The notes under the pieces are model-generated. The model saw nothing but the letters and a program-made list of their open reading frames with translations. It had not been told where the DNA came from and searched no databases. DNA of 64,000 nt from TPA_inf: Saccharomyces (taxonomy: Eukaryota), in NCBI GenBank assembly GCA_000146045.2, contig BK006938.2:1152001-1216000 (forward strand), written 5' to 3'. The translations under genes and the position numbers were made by a program. This document shows, in pieces, positions 2,131 to 60,621 of the stretch; positions within the stretch are counted from its first letter, which is position 1; each line of letters opens with the position of its first letter.

Positions 2131-4012
2131 CATTAAAAATATAAAATTAGAATTAGAGTACATTTCAAATGCACAAATTAGAGCGTGATCATGAATTAAT
2201 AAAAGTGTTCGCAAATTATTTGGTGCTGAACATTCTCTTGTACAATGGCTTGTCATCGTGAGTCATTTCTTCAGCGTCGTAGTTGGCACCTCTTCTGGAT
2301 GGTGGAACCCATGAGGCAGACTTCCATGGTAGAACACCTTCTTCCCACATGGTGTTGACTTCTTCCAAAGTCAAACCCTTAGTTTCTGGAACAACTAACA
2401 AAACATAGAAGAACATGAAGACCAAACAGCCCATGAAAACGTAACCGTAGTAGAAGTTAATAGCACCAGTAATAAATGGAGTGAAGAAACCAATCAAGAA
2501 ACCCCACAACCAATTAGCAGCTGTAGCAATAGACATAGCCTTAGACTTGACTCTCAATGGGAAAGTTTCAGAAACAACGACATAAGGAATTGGAGCCCAT
2601 GTAGTAGCAAAACAGAAAATATAGAAACAGGCAAAGACAATCATACAGTTACCAGCACCCTTGGAAGATGGTTGGTCTTGACCATTTGGCCATAATCTGG
2701 TGACACCCACGGAAGCATAGACAACCATACAAGCAGTCATGGATGCAGCACCCCATAGCAAACAAGTACGACGACCATATCTCTCAACAACGTAAATACC
2801 AACAAAGGTGGAAGCAAAGTTAACAATACCCAAGACAATAGAGGTTTCGAAAGAGTCACTCAAACCAACAGCCTTGAAAATAGTAGTACCATAGTAGAAG
2901 AAATAGTTATCACCTGTCAATTGTTGTAGAGATTGAATCATAGCACCCATGATCAAACGCTGAAGGACCTTTGTCTTGCTACTAAACAATTCACCCCAGG
3001 ATGCATTACCAGCTAATTTCTCTGCCTCTACACCAGCCAAGACAGCTTCGACTTCAGCCAAAACAGATGGATCATCAACAGCAACCTTGTTAGAAACGGC
3101 AATAGAACGTTTGGCTTCTTCGATCTTACCGACTTCAGCCAAATAACGTGGAGACTCTGGAACAAATGTCATACCACCAATCATAAACAAAGCCCAGGCA
3201 AAACACAAACCTAATGGAACTCTCCATTGCACAGAGTTGGAGTAGTTCTTAGTACCGAAGTTGGTACAGTAACCCAAGAAAATACCGGCAGTAATCATCA
3301 ATTGGTAGCAAGAGACTAAAGTACCCCTTAAATGCTTTGGGGATACTTCAGAAATCAACATAGGAGATAAAACGGCAATACCACCAACACCCAAACCGGA
3401 AATAATTCTACCGATGAAATATTGGTACCATTTGTTGATAGATGCAATTTGAATAATAATACCGATGATGTAGATGACAACAACGACAATCAAACCCACC
3501 TTACGACCGTACATATCACCCAATTTGGAAAGAATAATACCACCAATGGCACAACCAATGTTGAAAATGGAGACAATCAAACCAGTTCTAACCTTAGACA
3601 AATAATTAGTACCATCTTTATGCTTCATACCAAATCTTCTGATGAAATCGGTTTGATTGATGAAACCAGAAATGGTACCAGTATCCCAACCGAAAACGAA
3701 ACCACCAAAGGCGATCATGATACACATAATAGAGACAGTGACATAGGCAGAAGCTGGTCTCTTTGGAATTTCAACGACAGGTTCGTGCTCTTCACCTTCA
3801 CCATAAGCTTTTATTTCATCTCTTTCAGCCTTGTTTGATGGTGTAGATAAAACCGAGTGGGAGGCTGAGTCAACAGCAGAGAGATGCTCCACAGGAGTTT
3901 GCTCTGCAATAGCAGCGTCTTGTGACATTTTTTGATTAAAATTAAAAAAACTTTTTGTTTTTGTGTTTATTCTTTGTTCTTAGAAAAGACAAGTTGAGCT
4001 TGTTTGTTCTTG
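2131..4012. repeat. Tandem direct repeat unit A: HXT7 CDS plus 85 bp of 3' flank and 84 bp of 5' flank.
   Basis: Roughly 99.5% identical to 7523..9404 at a constant offset of 5392 bp. Identity starts abruptly at cattaaaaatat and ends at ttgttcttg. Confidence 0.95.
2216..3928 (-). CDS. HXT7: High-affinity hexose transporter, MFS sugar porter with 12 TM helices, 570 aa.
   Basis: Complete ORF. Protein has sugar-porter signatures (GRR/GRK motifs, PESPRYL, PETKG). It differs from the downstream copy at residue T556 versus A556 among the few nucleotide differences I spotted. HXT7 is assigned by position as the first copy and by gene order. Confidence 0.9.
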
Positions 4013-4295
4013 ATGTTTTATTATTTTACAATAGCTGCAAATGAAGAATAGATTCGAACATTGTGAAGTATTGGCATATATCGTCTCTATTTATACTTTT
4101 TTTTTTTCAGTTCTAGTATATTTTGTATTTTCCTCCTTTTCATTCTTTCAGTTGCCAATAAGTTACAGGGGATCTCGAAAGATGGTGGGGATTTTTCCTT
4201 GAAAGACGACTTTTTGCCATCTAATTTTTCCTTGTTGCCTCTGAAAATTATCCAGCAGAAGCAAATGTAAAAGATGAACCTCAGAAGAACACGCA

Positions 4296-4310
4296 GGGGC
4301 CCGAAATTGT
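4296..4310 (+). promoter_or_regulatory. GGGGCCCGAAATTGT motif in the HXT7 promoter, about 370 bp upstream of the ATG. It is shared with the HXT6 and HXT3 promoters.
   Basis: Direct sequence comparison of the three HXT upstream regions. The motif has the same orientation relative to all three genes. Confidence 0.35.
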
Positions 4311-7300
4311 TCCTACGAGAAGTAGTGGGTCATAAAAAGTTTATTCCCTGGAAAAAAAATTTTGCGTTGCCTTTCTGGAGAATTTTTTCGAATTAGCGTG
4401 CTGCCACTGCATGCATTTCTGAGAAGTGTGGGCATTCTTCCACCAGTTGTTCCTCCTAAAAAAAAAAAAGATTTCCTACCCCGCACAAATTCCTGCATAC
4501 CCCTCATTTCCACGGGGTAAAAAAAAAACATCCCGTAGCAGCCTCTGACGGAGCCGTATGGAACAATCCTGGATAAATATGGCGGAAAAACGGCTCTGGC
4601 TGCGGCTTTGTTTAAGGCAGAAACTAGATGAGATGTTTGTTGTTACGGAAAAAAAAATTTGTTGCGCTTTCTGTAGTGGGATTTGTCCTCATAACTTCTC
4701 CATGAAGGGGCCATTAAAATCTAGCCCTCTAGTAAAGCGTTATGGGAGCACTCTTGCGGCGTTCAACGGTGCTGCTTTTTCACTTTTACAGTATGATATG
4801 TCTTTCACATTGGGTTTTAGCTATAATTAGATAAAAATATTTTAAGTTGCTTTTGAAGTGTTTAGTAGGGCGTGTTTAGCAGGGCATGCTTAACAACCCC
4901 AAATGATCTTAGCGATGAGAGTACTATTTTCTAGGGTTGTTTTGTGCAGCCTGTTAATGTAGACATCAAGAAATTAAATGCGATCTTAATTCATTCGGAA
5001 TTTCTTTTCACCGTGTGAATGAAATTTTTCGAGATGCTAAGTATAATAAAAATAAAAAAATAAAATCGCTTTTCTTCTAGAGAATTTTTCCGTGAGAAAG
5101 TAAAAACACATAATACTAGCTTAATAAACTTTTCTTTCCACCACCCATAGGATACGCTAACAATTTTTGCTGTCAACTGCTTGCCATTTTGTTTTCTTCC
5201 GACTACTATCACTTAGGGCTATTGGCAGTATATGCGTAATTTTATCAATTACCATACTTGTCAAACATAGATCAGGAAAAATATTAACGTTCCTGTCAAT
5301 CTAAGACTTGAAGATTACAGGACTTTTTTTTTTCTTACTGTATTTTTCCGTAGAGTGCACCATTCGGCAGATGGATCGCGGGGAAATTGAGAGTTTATGC
5401 AAAAAAATCCGAAGGTGGAATTAAATGGGTCCCGCTTTGGAAAGCCCCGGATTTAATCCCCCATTAAGGCAAATTACTCCTCATCCTAGGTGGAGAAAAG
5501 AACCGGAAAAAAATGCAGTACCTTTTTTGTTCCCATTTCTTTTCCAAGTAAACAGGCGGAGAATCAAGCTGCTGCAGTTAGTTCTCAGAGTTCACTTAAC
5601 GTTCTCCTGTAATAAACATAAGGAACAACCATCACCCCACACTTTTATCTCTTCCTCACTAACATTGTGTTAGCTTGCATGTTCTTTGAGACTAATGACC
5701 GATTGTTTGATCTCTTCTTCCGATTATTGCTGGTCCGATCCCTTGAGCATCGAAAACCAAACGACTGTTTAAGATCTGTAATTGATTAAGACCCATTGGC
5801 GATTACTCACTCATCGGCAAAAAAAAATGGTCTGAACATGCGTTGAAAATTTTGCTCCCATGAGATTTTTTGTCTCATGTAGTAATTATTTTATTTCTTG
5901 AGCAATCTGAGCTTCAACAAGACAGAAAACGAATATGGCAACTGTTATTTCGTTATATAGTGTTGCTGGTGACCGAACACAAAAATGATCTTAGAATTGT
6001 AACTCAGGGAGCATACGAACAAAAGATTATTAGCATTTCGTACTTTCTAAAAGTTGAAGAAGTTGGCATTTGTTGATTTTATCATATCCTTAATAAAAAG
6101 TTGACGTCAGCATACAATTTGAAAATAGCAATATCGAATGCCTATTCCTCCTTTCGTTGTTTGAGTTTACCTAATATATCGATGCATTTTTGCAAAAGTG
6201 TGGTATTGAGCACGCGGTACTAGAAGGAAAAATCTCTTCTTTTTACTACGTGTCCTGCATTTCTATCATGGTGAAGATAATCATTATTTTATGTCAAAAA
6301 TTACTAGTTAGCTGTCAGAATTTTTTGTTTAAACATTGTTGAATTCCTGTCGCAGGTTAAAGAAATCGAAAAATAGCCAATGAAGTAGACAGAATCATTT
6401 GACCAGTTAGGTAAATTACTGTGTCAAATAATTCAACAACGCGTTTCTACGTGGTGGGCAGAAGTCCCTGGAATACTTTAGTGATGGTACACTTTTCGAC
6501 ATTAGAATTGTCTCTGAATTGTCACCCCGCTAATAAGTTATTTGTATGGACGCCAATAAAACCATACAAACGCGGCTTTCTGGTACTGCGTTTAATCTTG
6601 CATGAACTTTTCCGTCCATTGGGGCGAATATTCACTGTGCGATGTATACTACCTTTTTAGCTACTGAAGCCACTCTTAAAGCATGATTTTTTTCCTTCCT
6701 GCCATCTAAAGGTTACTTACGGCAACCTTTCCATAAATTGTTGCTGAAATAACATATAATAGTACCAAATGGGCCTATCAATAAGTTTACAGCCTACAAG
6801 ATTTTCTTCCACTAAAATATATTCGAATAGGACTTTGGCCAAAAACTGTTCATTAAGGGGCAGACTGTTCATGTTTTCTCGCAAATTACCTTTTTAACAA
6901 GGTGAAATTATTTTTTTTGGGGAATGCTAACTGTTTATCATCTGCCAGGAAAGAAAACTTAGATCCTCTTTACCAATCGCCGCCAGTAGTACATCATTTC
7001 TTATTAAATAAAAACATTTTCATATCATTAACCCTTTTTCAAACATATATGGGATGTAGTTTGCCAAGGATGATCATAAAGGCCTAATATGATCCCCATT
7101 TTCTTTTTATTACCAAAAATTCAGGTTTATTGACAAGCCTTCTCTACTCTGTCGCAATGCCAGTTTAACATTGAGGAGTTTAGTAGCTTCATTGTAATGA
7201 GGTGACTCTATTTAATTTCAGGTAGAAAAGCGCAGTACCGAGGTGAGCCCTGCATATGTACACTGATTGTGAAAAGCTCCGGCTCATAATTAATTTTTTT

Positions 7301-7522
7301 GATGAATTATAGAGTACTTTGTTTATAATAGAAGACTTTTTTTTTCCTCCTAAGGTAGCTTATGCGAGAAAGAGCGCCTACTTCGCTTCTAGCGCTACAA
7401 AACAATAACTTTGAAGGGTAAAGCTGTTAACTTTTCTTCAAAGCTTAGAAAAGAAAAAAAATTAATAAAAAATTATACTTCTATTGGCAACATCTTGCCA
7501 TACAATATAAATCGTAAGGGTT

Positions 7523-9404
7523 CATTAAAAATATAAAATCAGAATTAGAGTGCATTTCAAATGCACAAATTAGAGCGTGATCATGAATTAATAAAAATGT
7601 TCGCAAATTATTTGGTGCTGAACATTCTCTTGTACAATGGCTTATCATCGTGAGCCATTTCTTCAGCGTCGTAGTTGGCACCTCTTCTAGATGGTGGAAC
7701 CCATGAGGCAGACTTCCATGGTAGAACACCTTCTTCCCACATGGTGTTGACTTCTTCCAAAGTCAAACCCTTAGTTTCTGGAACAACTAACAAAACATAG
7801 AAGAACATGAAGACCAAACAGCCCATGAAAACGTAACCGTAGTAGAAGTTAATAGCACCAGTAATAAATGGAGTGAAGAAACCAATCAAGAAACCCCACA
7901 ACCAATTAGCAGCTGTAGCAATAGACATAGCCTTAGACTTGACTCTCAATGGGAAAGTTTCAGAAACAACGACATAAGGAATTGGAGCCCATGTAGTAGC
8001 AAAACAGAAAATATAGAAACAGGCAAAGACAATCATACAGTTACCAGCACCCTTGGAAGATGGTTGGTCTTGACCATTTGGCCATAATCTGGTGACACCC
8101 ACGGAAGCATAGACAACCATACAAGCAGTCATGGATGCAGCACCCCATAGCAAACAAGTACGACGACCATATCTCTCAACAACGTAAATACCAACAAAGG
8201 TGGAAGCAAAGTTAACAATACCCAAGACAATAGAGGTTTCGAAAGAGTCACTCAAACCAACAGCCTTGAAAATAGTAGTACCATAGTAGAAGAAATAGTT
8301 ATCACCTGTCAATTGTTGTAGAGATTGAATCATAGCACCCATGATCAAACGCTGAAGGACCTTTGTCTTGCTACTAAACAATTCACCCCAGGATGCATTA
8401 CCAGCTAATTTCTCTGCCTCTACACCAGCCAAGACAGCTTCGACTTCAGCCAAAACAGATGGATCATCAACAGCAACCTTGTTAGAAACGGCAATAGAAC
8501 GTTTGGCTTCTTCGATCTTACCGACTTCAGCCAAATAACGTGGAGACTCTGGAACAAATGTCATACCACCAATCATAAACAAAGCCCAGGCAAAACACAA
8601 ACCTAATGGAACTCTCCATTGCACAGAGTTGGAGTAGTTCTTAGTACCGAAGTTGGTACAGTAACCCAAGAAAATACCGGCAGTAATCATCAATTGGTAG
8701 CAAGAGACTAAAGTACCCCTTAAATGCTTTGGGGATACTTCAGAAATCAACATAGGAGATAAAACGGCAATACCACCAACACCCAAACCGGAAATAATTC
8801 TACCGATGAAATATTGGTACCATTTGTTGATAGATGCAATTTGAATAATAATACCGATGATGTAGATGACAACAACGACAATCAAACCCACCTTACGACC
8901 GTACATATCACCCAATTTGGAAAGAATAATACCACCAATGGCACAACCAATGTTGAAAATGGAGACAATCAAACCAGTTCTAACCTTAGACAAATAATTA
9001 GTACCATCTTTATGCTTCATACCAAATCTTCTGATGAAATCGGTTTGATTGATGAAACCAGAAATGGTACCAGTATCCCAACCGAAAACGAAACCACCAA
9101 AGGCGATCATGATACACATAATAGAGACAGTGACATAGGCAGAAGCTGGTCTCTTTGGAATTTCAACGACAGGTTCGTGCTCTTCACCTTCACCATAAGC
9201 TTTTATTTCATCTCTTTCAGCCTTGTTTGATGGTGTAGATAAAACCGAGTGGGAGGCTGAGTCAACAGCAGAGAGATGCTCCACAGGAGTTTGCTCTGCA
9301 ATAGCAGCGTCTTGTGACATTTTTTGATTAAAATTAAAAAAACTTTTTGTTTTTGTGTTTATTCTTTGTTCTTAGAAAAGACAAGTTGAGCTTGTTTGTT
9401 CTTG
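7523..9404. repeat. Tandem direct repeat unit B: HXT6 CDS plus short flanks.
   Basis: See unit A; identical boundaries shifted by 5392 bp. Confidence 0.95.
7608..9320 (-). CDS. HXT6: High-affinity hexose transporter, 570 aa, near-identical paralog of the upstream copy.
   Basis: Complete ORF. The protein is identical to the HXT7 ORF except A556 where I compared them. The silent differences I spotted are at 7643 and 7686; a non-silent difference is at 7667. Confidence 0.9.
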
Positions 9405-9740
9405 TTTTTTTATTATTAAAACAGAAAAATTGGAAAAAAGAAGAAGATAGTTACAAACCATATGTCTTTTCTCGAGCTCTTTTTATATGTTTCTGTGCTT
9501 TCTATATTGTATACCCATTTGCTCTCCATTGTCTGCAAGCCAAAATCTGCATACAGATCCGAGACATCTCTTGGATTTTTTTCAATGAAGGCACGGAGGG
9601 CATCTGAATAATCTCAATGAGTAAGAAACGAAATTTTTTAAGGAACATTTTCAATTTGCCTACGGACTATTCTCTGCAAAGTTCCAATAATTTCTCCTTT
9701 TTTTCCAGCGTTTAAAGGAAAAAAACTGGTTTTCGATGCC

Positions 9741-9755
9741 GGGGCCCCACAATGT
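9741..9755 (+). promoter_or_regulatory. GGGGCCCCACAATGT motif in the HXT6 promoter, about 420 bp upstream of the ATG. It forms the left arm of an 8 bp inverted repeat, CCCCACAA(9745-9752)/TTGTGGGG(9767-9774).
   Basis: Seen in sequence. TTTTTGTGGGG also fits the Mig1-type GC-box pattern of an AT-rich run followed by GYGGGG. Confidence 0.35.
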
Positions 9756-10005
9756 ACCTGCACTTTTTGTGGGGTAAACGTGGATAAAACGAATCTCCGT
9801 TGCCTAAAAAACATTTTTTTTCGTACGGTCCCCTCTGCGTTCAGGAAAAAAAGAGATCGGGTGGTGAGGCTAGGTAGCGTAGCCCCTTGGAGAAGCATAT
9901 GAAACATTTGTCTTGGCGCCGCACACAGGAACTGCGCACTTCTTTTTGTCCTAGGTTGCTTATCACACCATATGGTGCACCCGTGCTCGTTGTCACTGCC
10001 TTTTT

Positions 10006-10449
10006 TTAACAATTCTTCCTTTGTTCCTCTGAAAGCACGGGCCGGCGCACTCCAATTACCCCTACATTAATTTCCAAGTAGTAGCAGGGGGATGAACATG
10101 TGAACATGTTGCAACAACTGCGGTGTCTTCTTAGGCTTGTGTTCGGAATTTCTTCCTCCTGTTTCGGTGTGTGTTGCTTATTTTTTCCTTGCCCCTTTGC
10201 GGCATCACAGCAGCCGTTGTTCCGTATTCCGGCTGATAAGCATGGAAAGATTTTCCAACAATACTCATGAAAAAATGTGTTGGTGTCTGAGTAAGCTAAA
10301 TTTTCCCAAATTTGATGCCATTCAACCCGAAAACTTAAAATGTAAAAGGGGTTGAGATAGTGCAGCTGTGTGGCAAAAGTCAAAAAAAATCTGTTCCTTT
10401 CAAGGAAATGAAAAAAGGAAGGAAAAAATGTCCAGGACAGAAAGGCCAT
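10006..10449 (-). CDS. Small ORF of 147 aa in the HXT6 upstream region; probably non-coding (dubious).
   Basis: ORF-track entry only, with no recognisable protein features. It lies inside the HXT6 promoter and corresponds by position to a dubious annotated ORF (YDR344C) as I recall. Confidence 0.15.
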   Translation of the reverse strand: MAFLSWTFFPSFFHFLERNRFFLTFATQLHYLNPFYILSFRVEWHQIWENLAYSDTNTFFHEYCWKIFPCLSAGIRNNGCCDAAKGQGKNKQHTPKQEEEIPNTSLRRHRSCCNMFTCSSPCYYLEINVGVIGVRRPVLSEEQRKNC

Positions 10450-10956
10450 CCCCTTAGTAAAGAAACCTGCTTAGAGATTCTTGAGGCTCGAAAATGGTTG
10501 GTGGTTGGACTTCTTTTGAGTTTTCCGTCCGGATTTCAAACGAAATCCATCATCACGTTCCTAGCAACAAGAGGATTATTGGACGATTGTCGGGAGTAAA
10601 GATTACTCAGTTGGTTTTCTAACTCTACTGCGCACTTCTTCGTGGGTATAACAAATTGCACACACATACATTCTTATTATTTGATACTGCTTACGATAAC
10701 CGGAGACTTCTTTTTTTTCCTGTTCGGCTCTCGCCGATGGTATGAAGTTAAATGGTAGAAAAATTGTTTGTTTTGTTTACAAACTGGATCAAGAAATGTT
10801 AAAATTCTGTTTGATATCATGTACCAATGTCTTTTATTAACTGTATCAGAGAATTATATATATAAAGTCATAAATCTTGTGTATTATTTATCATTATTGA
10901 CTAGCACATCGAATCTTAAAATACACTATTATTCAGCACTACGGTTTAGCGTGAAA

Positions 10957-12660
10957 TTATTTCTTGCCGAACATTTTCTTGTAGAATGGCTGGTCATCAT
11001 GCATCAATGCATCAGCATCGTAGTTAGCACCTCTTTGAGATGTTGGAACCCATGAAGCAGACTTCCATGGTAGAACACCTTCAGCGTACATATCATTGAC
11101 TTCTTCCAAAGTCAAACCCTTAGTTTCTGGCACAAAGAAGAAAACGTAGAAGTAGGCGAAAACCATACAGCCCATGAAAACGTAACCGTAGTAGAAGTTA
11201 ATAGCACCAGTAATAAATGGAGTGAAGAAACCAATCAAGAAACCCCACAACCAATTAGCAGCTGTAGCAATAGACATAGCCTTAGACTTGACTCTCAATG
11301 GGAAAGTTTCAGAAATAACAACATAAGCAATTGGAGCCCAAGTGGTAGCAAAACAGAAAATATAGAAACAGGCAAAGACAATCATACAGTTACCAGCACC
11401 CTTGGATGAACCATTACCTTCACCATTTGGCCATAGTCTGGTGACACCAACAGAAGCGTAAACTACATAACAGCAGACCATACCAATGGCACCATATAAC
11501 AAACAGTTACGACGTCCAAAACGATCGACAGTGTACAAAGAACAACAAGTAGAGAAGAAGTTGACGACACCGAAAACAATAGAAGTTTCGAAAGAATCAC
11601 TCATACCAACAGCGTTAAAAACGGTAGTACCATAGTAGAAGAAATAGTTATCACCAGTCAATTGTTGTAGAGATTGGATCATGATACCCATCATAGTACG
11701 CTTAAACATGGCCGGCTTACCAGTGAACAACTCACCCCATGATGCTGAACCAGCAGCTCTAGCTTCTTCAACACTAGCTTCAATAACTTCCAACTCTTGT
11801 TGAATGAATGGATGGTCTGGGGCAACCTTGTTAACTTTGGAAAGAGATGCTCTTGCTTCGTCAATTTGACCAGCTTCAACCAAATAACGTGGGGATTCTG
11901 GAACGAAAGTCATACCACCGATCATAAACAAAGCCCAGGCAAAACACAAACCTAATGGAACTCTCCATTGCACAGAGTTGGAGTAGTTCTTAGTACCGAA
12001 GTTGGTACAGTAACCCAAGAAAATACCCAAGGTAATCATCAGTTGGTAACAGGAGACTAAAGTACCTCTCATTTCCTTAGGAGCGACTTCAGAAATCAAC
12101 ATAGGAGATAAAACGGCAATACCACCAACACCCAAACCGGAAATAATTCTACCGATGAAATATTGGTACCATTTGTTGATGGATGCAATTTGAATAATAA
12201 TACCGATGATGTAGATAACAACAACGACAATCAAACCCATTTTACGACCGTACATATCACCCAATTTAGCCAAAATAATACCACCAATGGCACAACCAAT
12301 GTTGAAAATGGAGACAATTAAACCAGTTCTAACCTTAGACAAATAATAACTACCATCTTTATGCTTCATACCGAATCTTCTCAAGAAATCAGTTTGGGCG
12401 ACGAAACCAGAAATGGTACCAGTATCCCAACCGAAAACGAAACCACCGAAGGCAACCATAACACAACAGATAGACACAGTGACATATGCACCTTTACCTG
12501 TATTTGGGTTGGTAAGTACTTGGTCGGCCTCAGCTTGGAAATCATCTTGAACACCTTTTTCTTCAGGCATGTTCATTACCTGAGAGCTATTCGAAGGCAG
12601 GTCAGCATTCGAATTCTCACTTGACTTTTGTGGAGATATTAAATCTGGAGTTGAATTCAT
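10957..12660 (-). CDS. HXT3: Low-affinity hexose transporter, MFS sugar porter, 567 aa.
   Basis: Complete ORF. Protein is roughly 85-90% identical to HXT6/7 across the TM core with a divergent N-terminal tail ([27 protein letters not shown]...). Length and neighbourhood match HXT3. Confidence 0.9.
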
Positions 12661-12856
12661 GATTGTTTAACTCAGATGTAAATTTTGTTTGTGATTCTAT
12701 TATTTATGAAAAGCTATTAAGTAAAATTATGGAATATTCATGCTGAAGATAAAACAGCGCCTGTATTTATATGCAACCCCCAAGCGAAAAAAAACTTTGA
12801 CTTTTCTTCTCTTCTGGAGAAATTCTCTGGGGATATAGTCCCCAGATTTTTTGAGT

Positions 12857-12869
12857 GGGCCCCCAATGT
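12857..12869 (+). promoter_or_regulatory. GGGCCCCCAATGT motif in the HXT3 promoter, about 200 bp upstream of the ATG.
   Basis: Same motif family as 4296 and 9741. Confidence 0.35.
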
Positions 12870-12972
12870 CCCACATCGTTATTGAGTTGTTTCTTTCTCC
12901 AGAAGGTCGTTGTACAGTCATTATAATGGCGGTCAGTATAATGACCTCCGGAAATACCAACATCGGGGAAAG

Positions 12973-13306
12973 CGGAAAATCTGGAAAAATTCTCCACGAA
13001 GCTTTCTCTGTGATAATCCGCGACCGAGAGTTTAACCGAATCCGCGGAACGAGATATTCCGTGTTTATTGCGGTATTATATGAGCCGGACGAATCCGGAA
13101 AAACTACGTGACAGGAACGATGACCGGGCAGCAGGCGAAGCTGGAAGAATATAGCTAAGAAAATGCGCACGGAAAAAAAACACTCCCGAATTTCTCCGTG
13201 AAAAGAGCCTACTAGGGGATAATAGTAGGTATCCGTTAATATTACCGAACTATTGAAAACCTACCAAATGCAAGAAGATGCAAACGAGCTAGAATGTTCC
13301 GCGAAT
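12973..13306. promoter_or_regulatory. Cluster of at least 8 CGGANNA (Rgt1-type) motifs in the HXT3 upstream region.
   Basis: Forward matches: CGGAAAA at 12973, CGGACGA at about 13086, CGGAAAA at about 13096 and CGGAAAA at about 13170. Reverse-strand matches (TNNTCCG): TAATCCG at about 13014, TATTCCG at about 13056, TTCTCCG at about 13192 and TGTTCCG at about 13296. Density is far above the background of the neighbouring intergenic DNA. Confidence 0.6.
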
Positions 13307-14168
13307 AGCTCATCTTACAATTTTTTTCTTTTTTCAAGAAAAAGAAAGTATTTTTTTTTCCTTTCATTTCATTGCTCCTCCTCCAGGTGTTATCTCGAGA
13401 AGATGAAGGCTGTCTGCGATGACGAATAGGAAAGAAAAAATTTTCCTTAATTTTGCTTGCTTAATTCTTATACGAATAATTCTTCTTAATCAACATCGGG
13501 CTTCATATTTACCAACACGCATTATTGATTAACAATACTTGCCTTAGGTTGAAATTGGACGCCGGAAGAGAATTTATAGCTAGTCAGTGTTCTTCGGCGT
13601 AATTTTATTAATGGACATACAGTGTACTTTTCAAACTACACCGCCATTTGATATACCGGTGTAATTTTTGATGAAGTGTCAGAATTAGCCGCACAGTTAA
13701 TTGAACACTTCGCTGTAAGGTGTGGATACAGATTAGATAAGAGCATTAGGCACCACATTTCTTCAGGCTTTTCCTGATGCTGGTTTGGATATTGCCTTCA
13801 TCCCGCACCAAAGCTGGCGTCCCGCATGAGGAAAATGAAGAGTTGTAAGCAGCACTAAATTCCGAAATTAAAGGGCGGGCGGATGCCACCAGTAAAATAT
13901 TCTTGATCAATCTTTGATATTTTCAAATGATCTCCCATTGTAATCTGAGAACTGCTCTTGTTTGGCTACGTAAGGCAGTATGAGGGTTGTAGTTAGTAGT
14001 AACCCTGTCTAAGATTCCCGGTGCTATGTACTTCTCTCACAATAATACAAGTAGTGAATGTCACTTAATAAATTTTTGTAATAAAAAGTCTACAAAGTTT
14101 GTTTGTGACTTGTCGAAATTCAATTCTGTTGCTTTCATTTTTCTGTAGAGAAGAAATAATATTCCGAC

Positions 14169-15213: not shown

Positions 15214-16659
15214 TCATGCTTCATTGTAAGACTCCTCACTAATCACATCTGATTCAGAAATGAATGTTACTTCGGTCCAAGCTACACCGTGAATTTTCTC
15301 CCCGCCATTTATTTGTAAAGTTGAGCTTTTTGGATCAGCATATTGGTATATAAATGGCTTAGTACCAGCAACACCAGAGACGATGTTTTTAACAAAACTT
15401 GGAATTTCGCCCATCACATCAATTCTTTCAACTAGGTTGTTCAACGGACCCTCCACAACAGCACAGATCTTATTTTCTTCTGCGACGTTCTTGTATTCTT
15501 CTTCCTCTTCATCTTCCTTTTCATCTTCCTTTTCATCCTCTCCTTGTAAAGCTTGTTCAGTCCCATTCTCGGATTCCAATTGTTCATCCTTGACTTTGGT
15601 ATTGATACCTTTGAAGGTGATCTTAATATCTTTTGGAACTTTCCAACCAACAGAATCAATTTCTGAGTTTAAGTGCTCAACAAGATTGTTAGTTGTCATC
15701 GCTAAAACTTCTTTATCATCGGTAATAATACCAGCAGAAATTTTAGTGTTGGCATATGATTTTGGTGTAGTGAACTCCATCAACACCGCGGAATACTTTT
15801 CGGAATGGAAAAACATGAAGTTCCATGCCTTAGCTGCGTGATGAGGCTTCATGCCTTGGAAGGCCATTATAAATGTCGAAATCGCAGGGTCTTCCTCTTT
15901 AAAAGTAATCGTACGATCTTCATAGGTGATTTCGACTTCTTCACTGTCGCTTTCTTCTTCACTACCAGATTCCTCCTCAGAATCACCAGACTCTTCATCT
16001 TCGTCTTCATTATCATCCTCATCAGCTGAGGATTCTTCTTCATCAGATTCTGGAATAACTTCTTTCTTAACTTTGATAGTACCGTGACAAGCATTCCTTG
16101 GCCAGAAAACGTGTCTCATGCTACCCCATGGTTCATTGATATTGTTACCATAATAAGTCGCAGGATCATCGCCTATCTTGGCTCCAGGGGTTAACCTTCT
16201 TATATGCAAGTCAACGACAGATAAATCACAAACACTGGATTGAATGTGATAGCTTTCACCGTCTTCACTTAATTCTACAGAAAGATTGTCGGCATAGAAG
16301 TTTGGACCTTCGATGTAAAAATTTTCCAACTTGGTGGAAGTCCAGATATTCAAATCCTCTGGATTCTTCGAGTCAAAAATTCTGAAAGTAAATTGGGATG
16401 CAGTGTGCAACCCAATGATGTTCGAATGAATAACCTGGGCAAATCCAAAGATACCTGTTTTCAAGTCACTGAAATAAAAGATAACCGATTCAACGTTTGT
16501 ATGGTCAGGAGCTTGCCAAAAAAAATCTTCACGACTGGTTTCTCTGTAAGGCTGCTTATTTTTTACCCTATCAGCAACACTATGAATGTAATCTTTCCCA
16601 TATTCAGGCTCAGCCATACCAGTGACTGCTGAGATCCCACCTTTTATCCACTTCAACAT
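15214..16659 (-). CDS. SVF1: Survival factor Svf1 family protein, 481 aa, with a long acidic Asp/Glu/Ser tract.
   Basis: Complete ORF of 481 aa. The internal low-complexity acidic block is DEEESSADEDDNEDEDEESGDSEEESGSEEESDSEE. Length and position fit SVF1 (YDR346C). Confidence 0.85.
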   Translation of the reverse strand: MLKWIKGGISAVTGMAEPEYGKDYIHSVADRVKNKQPYRETSREDFFWQAPDHTNVESVIFYFSDLKTGIFGFAQVIHSNIIGLHTASQFTFRIFDSKNPEDLNIWTSTKLENFYIEGPNFYADNLSVELSEDGESYHIQSSVCDLSVVDLHIRRLTPGAKIGDDPATYYGNNINEPWGSMRHVFWPRNACHGTIKVKKEVIPESDEEESSADEDDNEDEDEESGDSEEESGSEEESDSEEVEITYEDRTITFKEEDPAISTFIMAFQGMKPHHAAKAWNFMFFHSEKYSAVLMEFTTPKSYANTKISAGIITDDKEVLAMTTNNLVEHLNSEIDSVGWKVPKDIKITFKGINTKVKDEQLESENGTEQALQGEDEKEDEKEDEEEEEYKNVAEENKICAVVEGPLNNLVERIDVMGEIPSFVKNIVSGVAGTKPFIYQYADPKSSTLQINGGEKIHGVAWTEVTFISESDVISEESYNEA

Positions 16660-17147
16660 TATATTATATTATACAAAAGCTTATTCGTTTCTTTTTTCTT
16701 GATTCGATGCAATAAATGACTGAATCTTTTGATCTTCTACAGATTTCAAATTATCAAACGAATACAAAAGAATTCTATCAACAGGCTCTATCTATATATA
16801 ACAAACGAAAAGCCGTGCTATTCGTGAATCTCAAGGAGTAATCTTGCAAGATATCCCCGAATGTTTCAATCAACCAGCTGTCATTTCGCTTTTGTTTTCT
16901 CCCACTCATCGCAAGTTTGCCTCCTCAACAACAAAAAAACAACGAAAAAAAGCGGTACTAAACCGGACCTGAAGTTCCGTGGAAAGTGAGATTTATATTA
17001 TGCAGGATTTTGCTCAGATTCTCTCAAGAGCAATATCATAATGCATAAGTGATGAAAAGTATGGCAGAAACGGTGGGAGGAACCGCAGTTTTAGCTAGGA
17101 TCTGGAAACAATCAGTGATTTGCCATTTAACAGCTGGGGGAATCTAA

Positions 17148-18143
<996 letters not shown>

Positions 18144-23315: not shown

Positions 23316-23647
23316 TGTTGGAATAAGAATCCACTATCGTCTATCAACTAATAGTTGTACTATCAATATATTATCATATACGGTGTTAAGATGATGACAT
23401 AAGTTATGAGAAGCTGTCATCGAAGTTAGAGGAAGCTGAAGTGCAAGGATTGATAATGTAATAGGATAATGAAACATATAAAACGGAATGAGGAATAATC
23501 GTAATATTAGTATGTAGAAATATAGATTCCATTTAGAGGATTCCAATATCATCGAGGAGAACTTCTAGTATATTCTGTACACCTAATATTATAGCCTTTA
23601 TCAACAATGGAATCCCAACAAGTCTCTCAAAATACACCCATTTCTCA
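23316..23647 (+). repeat. Solo delta LTR of Ty1/Ty2 type, 332 bp, running TGTTGGAATA...ATTTCTCA.
   Basis: Full-length LTR with canonical termini and internal ATGGAATCCCAACAAG (the TYA start lies inside the LTR). No Ty internal sequence follows. Confidence 0.85.
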
Positions 23648-23812
23648 TAAACCAATTGTTCAGGCATTTATACGTTTAGATAGCCCAGCTATAGAAGGCG
23701 GAGTTTTACCTCATGTTGCTCAATCTGTTCGTTTTCTTAGGTTTCATATGTGTTCTATGAACGTTCAGGATAATGTATTGTCATGCTGACGTATCCCATT
23801 CTGAGATGTAAC
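23648..23812 (-). repeat. Truncated sigma (Ty3 LTR) fragment, minus orientation. Its TGTTG end lies about 17 bp upstream of tRNA-Met.
   Basis: The reverse complement reads ...ACGTTACATCTCAGAATGGGATACGTCAGCATGACAATACATTATCCTGAACGTTCATAGAACACATATGAAAC... This aligns to the sigma 5' end as I recall it. The distal part is replaced by the delta at 23316-23647. Confidence 0.55.
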
Positions 23813-23828
23813 GTCTGTACAAAACAAA

Positions 23829-23901
23829 GCTTCAGTAGCTCAGTAGGAAGAGCGTCAGTCTCATAATCTGAAGGTCGAGAGTTCGAACCTCCCCTGGAGC
23901 A
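23829..23901 (+). tRNA. Elongator tRNA-Met, anticodon CAT, 73 nt.
   Basis: GCTTCAGTAGCTCAGTAGGAAGAGCGTCAGTCTCATAATCTGAAGGTCGAGAGTTCGAACCTCCCCTGGAGCA. It has a cloverleaf with A box TAGCTCAGTAGG and B box AGTTCGAACCT. The anticodon loop CTCATAA gives CAT. Confidence 0.95.
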
Positions 23902-49666: not shown

Positions 49667-49749
49667 GTTTAATACATGATGATGCATCTTGATATTGAGA
49701 AATTATATGTATTATCCCTTTTTAACCTTTAAAAGGTCACAAATAAATA

Positions 49750-49822
49750 GCCTTGTTGGCGCAATCGGTAGCGCGTATGACTCTTAATCATAAGGTTAGG
49801 GGTTCGAGCCCCCTACAGGGCT
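49750..49822 (+). tRNA. tRNA-Lys, anticodon CTT, 73 nt.
   Basis: GCCTTGTTGGCGCAATCGGTAGCGCGTATGACTCTTAATCATAAGGTTAGGGGTTCGAGCCCCCTACAGGGCT. The anticodon loop CTCTTAA gives CTT. B box is GGTTCGAGCCC. Confidence 0.95.
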
Positions 49823-49847
49823 AATAACACATTCAAAATGTTATAAA

Positions 49848-54698: not shown

Positions 54699-54703
54699 AA
54701 GCA
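54699..54703. repeat. Ty1 target-site duplication AAGCA, left copy.
   Basis: The same 5 bp immediately follows the 3' LTR at 60622-60626. Confidence 0.85.
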
Positions 54704-55037
54704 TGTTGGAATAGAAATCAACTATCATCTACTAACTAGTATTTACATTACTAGTATATTATCATATACGGTGTTAGAAGATGACGCAAATGATGAGAAA
54801 TAGTCATCTAAATTAGTGGAAGCTGAAACGCAAGGATTGATAATGTAATAGGATCAATGAATATAAACATATAAAATGATGATAATAATATTTATAGAAT
54901 TGTGTAGAATTGCAGATTCCCTTTTATGGATTCCTAAATCCTTGAGGAGAACTTCTAGTATATTCTGTATACCTAATATTATAGCCTTTATCAACAATGG
55001 AATCCCAACAATTATCTCAACATTCACCCATTTCTCA
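54704..55037 (+). repeat. Ty1 5' LTR (delta), 334 bp.
   Basis: TGTTGGAATAGAAATCAAC...CATTCACCCATTTCTCA. Confidence 0.95.
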
Positions 55038-60265: not shown

Positions 60266-60287
60266 ATCTATTACATTATGGGTGGTA

Positions 60288-60621
60288 TGTTGGAATAGAA
60301 ATCAACTATCATCTACTAACTAGTATTTACATTACTAGTATATTATCATATACGGTGTTAGAAGATGACGCAAATGATGAGAAATAGTCATCTAAATTAG
60401 TGGAAGCTGAAACGCAAGGATTGATAATGTAATAGGATCAATGAATATAAACATATAAAATGATGATAATAATATTTATAGAATTGTGTAGAATTGCAGA
60501 TTCCCTTTTATGGATTCCTAAATCCTTGAGGAGAACTTCTAGTATATTCTGTATACCTAATATTATAGCCTTTATCAACAATGGAATCCCAACAATTATC
60601 TCAACATTCACATATTTCTCA
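60288..60621 (+). repeat. Ty1 3' LTR (delta), 334 bp.
   Basis: Identical to the 5' LTR except CC to AT at LTR positions 324-325 (60611-60612 versus 55027-55028). Confidence 0.95.

What the first reader, a model, noticed from the sequence alone, without database searches (positions are those of the whole stretch)
2131..9404. Near-perfect 1.88 kb tandem duplication carrying HXT7 and HXT6 with a 5392 bp period
Two 1882 bp blocks (2131-4012 and 7523-9404) are roughly 99.5% identical. Each contains a complete 570 aa hexose-transporter CDS plus only about 85 bp of flank on each side. The encoded proteins differ at residue 556 (T versus A) in the copies I compared. Homology stops abruptly, so the two genes have entirely different promoters (3.6 kb unique versus 1.6 kb unique). 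Identity this tight, including synonymous sites, implies either a very recent duplication or ongoing gene conversion confined to the coding unit. A direct repeat of this size is a substrate for unequal sister-chromatid exchange. From the literature, HXT6/7 chimeric amplifications are selected in glucose-limited chemostats; I did not see that in this sequence.
Basis: partly seen in the sequence, partly recalled or inferred. Interest (0 to 1): 0.55.

Follow-up and report, generated by a model that had tools for sequence, protein, structure and literature searches.

The report
HXT7–HXT6 tandem glucose-transporter gene repeat
This is the well-known pair of almost identical high-affinity glucose-transporter genes (HXT7 and HXT6) of baker's yeast; the pair is an old duplication kept identical by repeated copying between the two genes, so it is real but ordinary.

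Summary
Window 2131-4012 and 7523-9404 form an ungapped direct repeat with a 5392-nt period. It has 6 mismatches in 1882 nt (99.68% identity). Each block holds a 570-aa sugar-porter CDS plus about 85 nt on each side. The two proteins are exactly S288C HXT7 (copy A) and HXT6 (copy B) and differ only at T556A.

Two refinements. All six mismatches lie in the 3'-terminal 167 nt, and the remaining 1715 nt are perfectly identical. A third paralogue, HXT3 (10957-12660), sits 3349 nt further on.

Comparison with four other S. cerevisiae genomes, S. paradoxus and S. uvarum settles it. All have the same HXT3-HXT6-HXT7 arrangement and block edges that agree to within a few nucleotides. Flanks group by position (orthology). 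Coding blocks group by genome. The duplication therefore predates the genus radiation, and the identity comes from gene conversion (concerted evolution).

Patches are also exchanged with HXT3 and with a chromosome-VIII-type paralogue. This raises between-strain divergence inside the blocks to 1.5-8.5%, against 0.2-1.8% in the flanks.

The locus and its role in unequal-crossover amplification are already published. Two reviews that call the pair a recent duplication appear to be wrong.

The parts
2131..4012 (-). Repeat block A: the HXT7 unit, made of CDS plus 84 nt of 5' leader and 85 nt of 3' trailer
   Evidence: It aligns ungapped with 7523-9404, with 6 mismatches in 1882 nt.
2216..3928 (-). 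HXT7 coding sequence (570 aa, Thr556)
   Evidence: ORF. Pfam Sugar_tr E=4.1e-181. Exact match to NP_010629.3 HXT7 S288C.
7523..9404 (-). Repeat block B: the HXT6 unit
7608..9320 (-). HXT6 coding sequence (570 aa, Ala556)
   Evidence: ORF. Pfam Sugar_tr match. Identical to P0001, 'HXT6 [S. cerevisiae S288C]'.
2298..4012 (-). Perfectly identical tract of 1715 nt, partner 7690-9404. Read as the footprint of the most recent conversion event in this lineage.
   Evidence: Longest exact run. The mismatches cluster outside it with P about 1e-6.
2131..2297 (-). 3' tail of the block, carrying all six A/B differences (3.6%). Copy A keeps a copy-A-specific haplotype here.
   Evidence: Copy B carries the common allele at all six sites. 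Copy A's alleles are shared with copy A of strain L002 (4 of 6 sites) and of strain L005 (2 sites).
4013..7522 (-). Unique spacer: the HXT7 promoter and upstream region, which is also the HXT6 downstream region
   Evidence: No significant similarity to the HXT6 promoter. Orthologous to the copy-A upstream region of S. paradoxus (z=158) and S. uvarum (z=66-70).
9405..10956 (-). Unique spacer: the HXT6 promoter, which is also the HXT3 downstream region
   Evidence: Orthologous to the copy-B upstream region of S. paradoxus (z=172) and S. uvarum (z=62-71). Unrelated to copy-A upstream sequence.
4090..4095 (-). TATAAA element 167 nt upstream of the HXT7 ATG
   Evidence: motif scan; the sequence is visible. 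The distance is the same as in HXT6.
9482..9487 (-). TATAAA element 167 nt upstream of the HXT6 ATG
   Evidence: the sequence is visible. The element lies at -164 to -180 in both copies of S. paradoxus and S. uvarum.
10957..12660 (-). Third tandem paralogue (HXT3, 567 aa), about 80% identical to HXT6/7 across the full-length CDS alignment. It exchanges coding patches with them.
   Evidence: Exact runs shared with both A and B lie at 11167-11315 (149 nt), 11345-11406 (62 nt), 11921-12027 (107 nt) and 12086-12180 (95 nt).

Best explanation
This is the HXT7-HXT6 pair of Saccharomyces cerevisiae (S288C-type sequence). The two genes encode tandem, same-strand high-affinity hexose facilitators of the MFS sugar-porter family, and the low-affinity paralogue HXT3 follows them.

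The duplication is old. It predates the split of S. cerevisiae, S. paradoxus and S. uvarum. Each copy has its own independently evolving promoter and downstream region.

A block has been homogenised repeatedly by non-allelic gene conversion between the two copies. It covers the CDS plus about 85 nt of leader and about 85 nt of trailer, and its edges have been fixed since before the genus radiated. In the S288C lineage the latest event left 1715 nt of perfect identity and stopped short of the 3' tail.

Conversion also imports shorter coding patches from HXT3 and from the chromosome-VIII sister cluster (HXT4/HXT1 type). As a result, alleles of the block differ far more between strains than the flanks do.

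The same direct repeat is the substrate for crossovers. These delete one copy and the spacer (single-copy or chimeric HXT6/7, circular DNA) or amplify the unit. Amplification is the adaptive event seen under glucose limitation.

Shown here: the anatomy, the age of the duplication, grouping by genome versus grouping by position, and the mosaic patches. Inferred: the conversion mechanism itself. From the literature: transporter affinity, amplification and deletion.
For: Identity and anatomy.

Concerted evolution within the species. Repeat-core identity between A and B within a genome is 99.7% (S288C), 99.0% (L001), 98.9% (L004), 98.7% (L005) and 95.9% (L002). The same position compared between genomes is only 91.3-98.7% identical.

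Flank control. Unique flanks differ by 0.2-1.8% between strains, while the blocks differ by 1.5-8.5%.

Across species. S. uvarum (L006) and S. paradoxus (L008) have the same C-B-A-ArgRS order. Within-species A-B CDS identity is 99.8, 94.5 and 93.9%. Between-species identity is 86.5-91.8% with no A-A or B-B preference. HXT3 orthologues are 90.0-93.8% identical.

Flanks group by position. The 400 nt outside the block give z=62-172 upstream and z=10-86 downstream for the same position across species. Paralogous flanks give z<3.

Block edges coincide to a few nucleotides in all three species.

Mosaic structure. Variable sites fall in shared haplotype blocks. HXT7 and HXT3 of S288C share exact runs of 149, 107, 95 and 62 nt, against about 26 nt expected, and strain L002 has none of 60 nt or more. 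Strain L002's HXT6/7 shares a 182-nt exact run with a chrVIII-type gene.

Literature. The genes are 99% identical and amplify by unequal mitotic recombination (PMC2586090). SK1 has one copy without the spacer (PMC3757047). S. uvarum HXT6/7 amplification has a unit of about 5.36 kb (PMC5455960). HXT3-HXT7 and HXT1-HXT4 fusions occur in cheese strains (PMC5995190).
Against: No conversion event was observed directly; the mechanism is inferred from sequence patterns.

Only five S. cerevisiae genomes were compared, and four of them were chosen because their proteins were diverged, so the strain sample is biased. Only one genome each of two other species was used.

Some of the long-read assemblies show 1-nt indels in copy A. 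This warns that assembly errors exist, although they cannot create the block-wise substitution patterns.

Two reviews (PMC3497230, PMC10500205) state that HXT6/HXT7 is a recent duplication within S. cerevisiae.
Confidence: 0.9

Rival explanations
1. Very recent duplication. A 1.9-kb unit, or a larger one, was duplicated in the S. cerevisiae or S288C lineage so recently that only six substitutions have accumulated.
For: The blocks are 99.68% identical, including synonymous sites. Two reviews assert a recent duplication (PMC3497230, PMC10500205).
Against: Both copies, in the same order, with position-specific orthologous promoters and the same block edges, are present in S. paradoxus and S. uvarum.

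The two promoters share no significant similarity.

The six differences are clustered rather than spread. They include a copy-A-specific haplotype shared with other strains, so they are older than the identity tract.
Confidence: 0.03
2. The two sequences are held identical by purifying selection and codon-usage selection alone, without sequence exchange.
For: HXT genes are highly expressed and codon-biased (general knowledge). Transmembrane segments are conserved across paralogues.
Against: Selection cannot make paralogues within each genome share the same synonymous and non-coding (UTR) variants while orthologues differ by 8-13%. It also cannot produce strain-specific haplotype blocks shared by both copies. 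Nor can it explain 1715 nt without a single difference next to a 3.6%-diverged tail.
Confidence: 0.02
3. A mechanistic variant of the best explanation. Homogenisation is coupled to transcription or templated by the transcript (cDNA-mediated conversion). This would explain why the block is the CDS plus short leader and trailer and nothing else.
For: The block runs from about -85 to about +87 around the CDS in three species. The TATA element lies outside it at -167 in both copies. That extent is of the order of a yeast mRNA.
Against: Transcript ends were not mapped here.

The 3' edge falls right after a TATATT-like element, which in yeast usually lies upstream of the poly(A) site, so the mRNA probably extends past the block.

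Ordinary DNA-templated conversion, limited by loss of homology, explains fixed sharp edges equally well.

Exchange with HXT3 and chrVIII genes involves internal coding patches, as expected for ordinary heteroduplex tracts.
Confidence: 0.08
4. Assembly artefact. One gene was written twice, or two diverged genes were collapsed to one sequence.
For: Near-identical 1.9-kb repeats are hard to assemble. PMC3223075 notes that these genes lay at contig ends in a draft genome.
Against: The two copies sit in long unique flanks within one contiguous window. They carry six consistent differences. The same two-copy structure appears in at least seven independent assemblies from three species.
Confidence: 0.01

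Closest known systems
HXT7 (YDR342C) and HXT6 (YDR343C) of Saccharomyces cerevisiae S288C, with HXT3 (YDR345C) next to them
   Same: The proteins are identical. The order HXT7-HXT6-HXT3 next to the arginyl-tRNA synthetase gene is the same. The published description matches: tandem, about 99% identical, amplified by unequal recombination (PMC2586090). The systematic names are from my own knowledge.
   Different: Nothing differs; this is that locus.
Nearly identical tandem gene arrays of yeast that vary in copy number (CUP1, ENA1/2/5)
   Same: They are same-strand tandem copies kept nearly identical. They show copy-number change by unequal recombination and circle formation. PMC12157680 groups them with HXT6/HXT7.
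   Different: In those arrays the whole repeat unit is repeated, promoter and spacer included (my knowledge). Here only the CDS plus about 85 nt on each side is homogenised, and the two promoters are unrelated and evolve independently.
Human alpha-globin genes HBA1/HBA2, the classical case of concerted evolution of a tandem pair (my knowledge, not tested here)
   Same: An old tandem duplication is homogenised in discrete blocks with sharp edges. The flanks have diverged. Unequal crossover between the blocks gives single-gene deletions and triplications.
   Different: The organism and protein family differ. Here additional donors (HXT3 and chrVIII paralogues) feed patches into the pair.
HXT3-HXT7 and HXT1-HXT4 fusion genes of cheese strains (PMC5995190) and the single-copy HXT6/7 of SK1 (PMC3757047)
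   Same: They are crossover products of the same family of direct repeats. Locus L007, fetched here, is such an HXT1-HXT4-type fusion.
   Different: The window carries the unrearranged three-gene arrangement.

Membership tests
MFS sugar-porter family / yeast HXT hexose transporters | Full-length match to the Sugar_tr (PF00083) profile | tested here: met
   Residues 68-528 cover profile positions 1-452 of 452. E=4.1e-181 for copies A and B, and E=1.2e-179 for C.
MFS sugar-porter family / yeast HXT hexose transporters | Sequence homology across the whole transmembrane core to solved sugar porters | tested here: met
   Matches include STP10 (6h7d, E=1e-63, query residues 65-536), GLUT1/3/4, XylE and GlcP.
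MFS sugar-porter family / yeast HXT hexose transporters | High-affinity glucose transport activity | not testable with these tools
   Taken from the literature (PMC12668610 and the references in it). Because the proteins are identical to HXT7 and HXT6, that evidence applies directly.
HXT7/HXT6 locus of S. cerevisiae | Exact protein identity and conserved neighbours (HXT3 on one side, arginyl-tRNA synthetase on the other) | tested here: met
   for identity; for the gene order in other strains.
Tandem paralogues under concerted evolution (non-allelic gene conversion) | Paralogues within a genome are more alike than positional counterparts between genomes or species | tested here: met
Tandem paralogues under concerted evolution (non-allelic gene conversion) | Sequences just outside the homogenised block show normal orthology by position | tested here: met
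   Same position across species gives z=62-172 upstream and z=10-86 downstream; paralogous flanks give z<3.
Tandem paralogues under concerted evolution (non-allelic gene conversion) | Mosaic tract structure: discrete blocks of shared variants and long exact runs between otherwise diverged copies | tested here: met
Tandem paralogues under concerted evolution (non-allelic gene conversion) | Direct observation of conversion events and their genetic requirements | not testable with these tools
   This needs marked-allele genetics.
Recent segmental duplication | The second copy is absent from related species | tested here: not met
   Both copies are present in S. paradoxus and S. uvarum.
Recent segmental duplication | Uniformly low divergence across the duplicated unit, including non-coding flanks | tested here: not met
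   Mismatches are clustered and the flanks are unrelated.
Direct-repeat substrate for unequal crossover, copy-number change and circle formation | Same orientation, with hundreds of nucleotides or more of uninterrupted identity | tested here: met
   The repeat is in direct orientation and includes a 1715-nt perfect run.
Direct-repeat substrate for unequal crossover, copy-number change and circle formation | Copy-number variants present at the locus | not tested
   The window has the two-copy state. Variants are documented in the literature only (PMC2586090, PMC3757047, PMC5850772, PMC5455960).

The most novel reading that the evidence does not exclude
The homogenised unit has had the same edges for the whole Saccharomyces radiation, from about -85 to about +87 around the CDS, with the TATA box just outside. 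It may therefore be defined by the transcription unit. Conversion would then be transcription-coupled or transcript-templated rather than limited simply by decay of homology.

Combined with patch import from HXT3 and the chromosome-VIII cluster, this would make HXT6/7 a locus that is kept identical within a genome yet is 4-8 times more variable than its flanks between strains. In effect it would be a diversity-generating exchange network for transporter alleles.
Probability: 0.08. Interest if true: 0.55.

Novelty: already known. Interest (0 to 1): 0.17.

Why it matters
The locus is a textbook example of adaptive gene amplification, so the finding adds nothing new in kind.

There is a modest by-product. 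The data show that the pair is an ancient duplication masked by concerted evolution. It is not a recent duplication within S. cerevisiae, as two reviews state (PMC3497230, PMC10500205).

This matters for three reasons:
- It affects how duplicates are dated from sequence identity.
- It affects reconstructions of HXT family history.
- It affects short-read population studies. Such studies will misjudge variation at a locus whose alleles differ by up to 8% while its two copies are nearly identical within a genome.

Tried and rejected
1. Residual promoter homology. A sensitive blastn extended the alignment about 115 nt past the 5' edge (80% over 230 nt). Without the identical 113 nt, the remainder is not significant: z=2.4, with 9 of 200 shuffles as good. 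I rejected it as homology and kept only the observation that TATA sits at -167 in both copies.

2. HXT3 as the main donor of the strain-specific variants. Only about 28-33% of non-S288C alleles match HXT3, so HXT3 explains some patches but not most.

3. Getting a canonical S. cerevisiae HXT4/HXT1 sequence. A second protein search using an S. uvarum HXT4-like query did not list one. I used the HXT1-HXT4 fusion locus L007 instead, so donor identity on chromosome VIII is only approximate.

4. Rgt1 (CGGANNA) and Mig1 motif counts in the HXT7 and HXT6 promoters are not clearly above shuffles. The best P values are 0.18-0.22 for Rgt1 and 0.04-0.06 for Mig1. No conclusion was drawn. The HXT3 promoter is clearly enriched for Rgt1 sites (9 against 1.7 expected).

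5. UTR homology with other paralogues: none.

6. Lin & Li 2011 (PMC3002240), the main paper on HXT family evolution, is not held in the library. I could not check whether it already dates the duplication.

7. My first extraction of copy A from L001 was off. I corrected it using the called gene coordinates.

8. The global alignment of the S. paradoxus locus to the window is valid only for block B and HXT3, because the fetched locus is shifted. Its other columns were ignored.
Full report
**What is there.** Window 2131-4012 and 7523-9404 form a direct repeat with a 5392-nt period that aligns without gaps. There are exactly six mismatches in 1882 nt (99.68%). They lie at 2148, 2160, 2205, 2252, 2263 and 2297. 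Each block contains a 570-codon ORF on the minus strand, 2216-3928 and 7608-9320. Each also includes 84 nt upstream of the ATG and 85 nt downstream of the stop.

Two things were missed. First, identity is not uniform. All six differences lie in the 3'-terminal 167 nt of the block (3.6% divergence), and the other 1715 nt are perfectly identical. This clustering has a chance probability of about 1e-6 to 2.5e-5. Second, a third, diverged tandem paralogue of 567 aa lies at 10957-12660, 3349 nt beyond copy B.

**Identity of the genes.** All three proteins are full-length members of the Pfam Sugar_tr family, with E about 1e-180. They are homologous over the whole membrane core to solved sugar porters such as STP10, GLUT1/3/4 and XylE. 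Copy A is, residue for residue, NP_010629.3 'hexose transporter HXT7 [Saccharomyces cerevisiae S288C]'. Copy B is exactly the S288C HXT6 protein. In other strains the neighbours are HXT3 on one side and an arginyl-tRNA synthetase gene on the other.

**Where homology ends.** Beyond the block, the two promoters and the two downstream regions show no significant similarity. A sensitive blastn finds nothing apart from a weak extension of about 115 nt on the 5' side. A shuffle test shows that extension is not significant: z=2.4, with 9 of 200 shuffles as good. 'Homology stops abruptly' is therefore supported. The only trace of common ancestry outside the block is architectural. Both genes have their single TATAAA at exactly -167 from the ATG (window 4090-4095 and 9482-9487). 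The element lies at -164 to -180 in both copies of two other species.

**Recent duplication or gene conversion?** I fetched the same locus from four other S. cerevisiae genomes (L001, L002/L003, L004, L005). I also fetched it from S. paradoxus (L008) and from a metagenome contig whose proteins are exact matches to S. uvarum (L006). All have the order HXT3-HXT6-HXT7-ArgRS.

Three results decide the question.

(i) Within each genome the two blocks are more alike than either is to its positional counterpart elsewhere.
- Within S. cerevisiae genomes, A-B repeat-core identity is 99.7% (S288C), 99.0% (L001), 98.9% (L004), 98.7% (L005) and 95.9% (L002). Between genomes, the same position is 91.3-98.7% identical.
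- Across species, A-B CDS identity is 99.8, 94.5 and 93.9% within S. cerevisiae, S. paradoxus and S. uvarum. Between species it is 86.5-91.8%, with no A-A or B-B preference. HXT3 orthologues are 90.0-93.8% identical.

(ii) The 400 nt just outside the block do the opposite and group by position. Upstream, z is 62-172 for the same position across species; downstream, z is 10-86. Paralogous flanks are at background, z<3.

(iii) The block edges coincide to within a few nucleotides in the three species. The block starts at ...AAGAACAAACAAGCTCAACTTG, about -85. It ends at ...TTTTATATTTTTAATGA, about +87.

S. uvarum belongs to the most distant lineage of the genus (my knowledge). The duplication and its two distinct promoters therefore predate the genus radiation, and the coding-block identity is maintained by gene conversion. 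The 'very recent duplication' alternative is refuted. Two reviews state the opposite. [quoted passage not shown]

**What the six differences mean.** At all six sites, copy B of S288C carries the allele found in most copies of other strains. Copy A's tail shares a copy-A-specific haplotype with copy A of strain L002 (four of six sites) and of L005 (two UTR sites). Thr556 is unique to S288C HXT7 among the sequences compared. The tail is therefore older variation that the last conversion tract did not reach, not new mutation since a duplication. In strains L001, L004 and L005 the unconverted differences sit at the 5' end of the block instead. Strain L002 keeps distinct A-type and B-type 5' ends that other strains have homogenised in opposite directions.

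**A wider exchange network.** Between strains the unique flanks differ by 0.2-1.8%, but the blocks differ by 1.5-8.5%, in patches. The 161 variable sites among HXT6/7 copies form haplotype blocks. Part of this variation comes from other paralogues.
- S288C HXT7 and HXT6 are about 80% identical to HXT3 overall, yet share exact runs of 149, 107, 95 and 62 nt with it, at window 11167-11315, 11921-12027, 12086-12180 and 11345-11406. About 26 nt would be expected. Strain L002 has no run of 60 nt or more.
- HXT3 of strain L004 carries an HXT6/7-type patch.
- Both HXT6/7 copies of L002 share a 182-nt exact run with the 570-aa gene of a chromosome-VIII-type locus, L007. S288C has no such run.
- L007 has only two HXT genes. 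It looks like the HXT1-HXT4 fusion described in cheese strains (PMC5995190).
- The UTR parts of the block have no counterpart in any other paralogue. Exchange with HXT3 and chromosome VIII is therefore confined to coding sequence, while HXT6-HXT7 exchange includes the leader and trailer.

**How it works.** Two genes encode an identical or nearly identical high-affinity glucose facilitator. They are driven by two unrelated promoters of different length, and both are reported to respond to the same four repressors (PMC12668610).

Recurrent non-allelic conversion keeps the transcribed core identical. This is inferred, and could occur within a chromatid, between sister chromatids or between homologues. 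Loss of homology at the edges stops heteroduplex extension, which explains why the edges are sharp and stable.

Crossovers in the 1.7-kb identical tract give the known rearrangements:
- Loss of one copy and the spacer, as in SK1 (PMC3757047) and possibly sake strain K7 (PMC3223075).
- Circles and amplifications selected under glucose limitation (PMC2586090 citing Brown et al. 1998; PMC5850772).
- Amplification of a unit of about 5.36 kb in S. uvarum (PMC5455960). This matches its repeat period of 5328 nt.

**Verdict.** The feature is real, correctly described and correctly named, and it is already well known. The analysis adds three things: a clear choice of gene conversion over recent duplication, the fixed block edges across the genus, and evidence for patch exchange with HXT3 and the chromosome-VIII cluster. 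These refine known biology and are not a new kind of system.

The most novel reading left open is that the block is defined by the transcription unit, through transcription-coupled or transcript-templated conversion. I rate it unlikely. Ordinary homology-limited conversion explains the edges, and the 3' edge probably lies upstream of the poly(A) site.

Noticed in passing
window 10957-12660 (exact runs at 11167-11315, 11345-11406, 11921-12027, 12086-12180): The third tandem paralogue (HXT3) is about 80% identical to HXT6/7 overall but shares exact runs of 149, 62, 107 and 95 nt with both. These runs are absent in strain L002, so they reflect recent, strain-polymorphic conversion between HXT3 and HXT6/7.
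   Followed up: yes
L001-L005 compared with window 2131-4012 and 7523-9404: Between S. cerevisiae strains the two blocks differ by 1.5-8.5%, while the surrounding unique DNA differs by 0.2-1.8%. The extra differences come in haplotype blocks. Short-read mapping to the reference would handle this locus poorly.
   Followed up: partly
L002 10001-11713 and about 15426-17138, compared with L007 10001-11713: Both HXT6/7 copies of strain L002 share a 182-nt exact run with the 570-aa gene at a chromosome-VIII-type locus; S288C has none. This suggests interchromosomal conversion between the two sister clusters. Direction and the exact donor (HXT4 or HXT1) are not resolved.
   Followed up: partly
L007 6185-11713: This chromosome-VIII-type locus has only two HXT genes between the Pal1 paralogue and the ArgRS paralogue. 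The 570-aa gene starts like HXT1/HXT3 ([12 protein letters not shown]) but sits where HXT4 should be. It looks like the HXT1-HXT4 fusion reported in cheese strains (PMC5995190).
   Followed up: partly
L004 about 15335-17217; L005 15404-17117: Copy A (the HXT7 position) has a 1-nt insertion giving a frameshift in L004 (stop at codon 265) and in L005 (stop at codon 370; called as two genes). In L002-L004 copy A was not called as a gene, although L002's ORF is intact. These could be real pseudogenes or homopolymer errors of long-read assemblies.
   Followed up: no
window 4090-4095 and 9482-9487: Both otherwise unrelated promoters have their only TATA[AT]A within 1.2 kb at exactly -167 from the ATG. 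The element lies at -164 to -180 in both copies of S. paradoxus and S. uvarum. Core-promoter spacing seems conserved although sequence similarity is gone.
   Followed up: partly
window 12661-13860: The HXT3 promoter has 9 CGGANNA (Rgt1-type) motifs against 1.7 expected from shuffles (P<0.004). The HXT7 and HXT6 promoters have 3 each, not above chance.
   Followed up: no
window 54703-55002 and 60287-60586; 23494-23648; tRNAs at 23829-23901 and 49749-49823: A pair of 100%-identical direct repeats at least 300 nt long lies 5584 nt apart, as expected for the two LTRs of a Ty retrotransposon. A related 155-nt copy (83-85% identical) lies next to a tRNA-Met gene, like a solo LTR. A tRNA-Lys gene lies about 5 kb upstream of the element.
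   Followed up: no
window 3422-3838 and 8814-9230 (+ strand); 10006-10449 and 12727-13170 (- strand): Two identical 138-codon TTG-start ORFs lie antisense inside the two transporter genes and are simply part of the repeat. Two 147-codon ORFs lie in the HXT6 and HXT3 upstream regions. No similarity was found between those two regions. They are probably not genes.
   Followed up: no
literature: PMC3497230 and PMC10500205: Two reviews describe HXT6/HXT7 as a recent duplication, one of them 'within S. cerevisiae'. The synteny, flank orthology and shared block edges in S. paradoxus and S. uvarum contradict this.
   Followed up: yes
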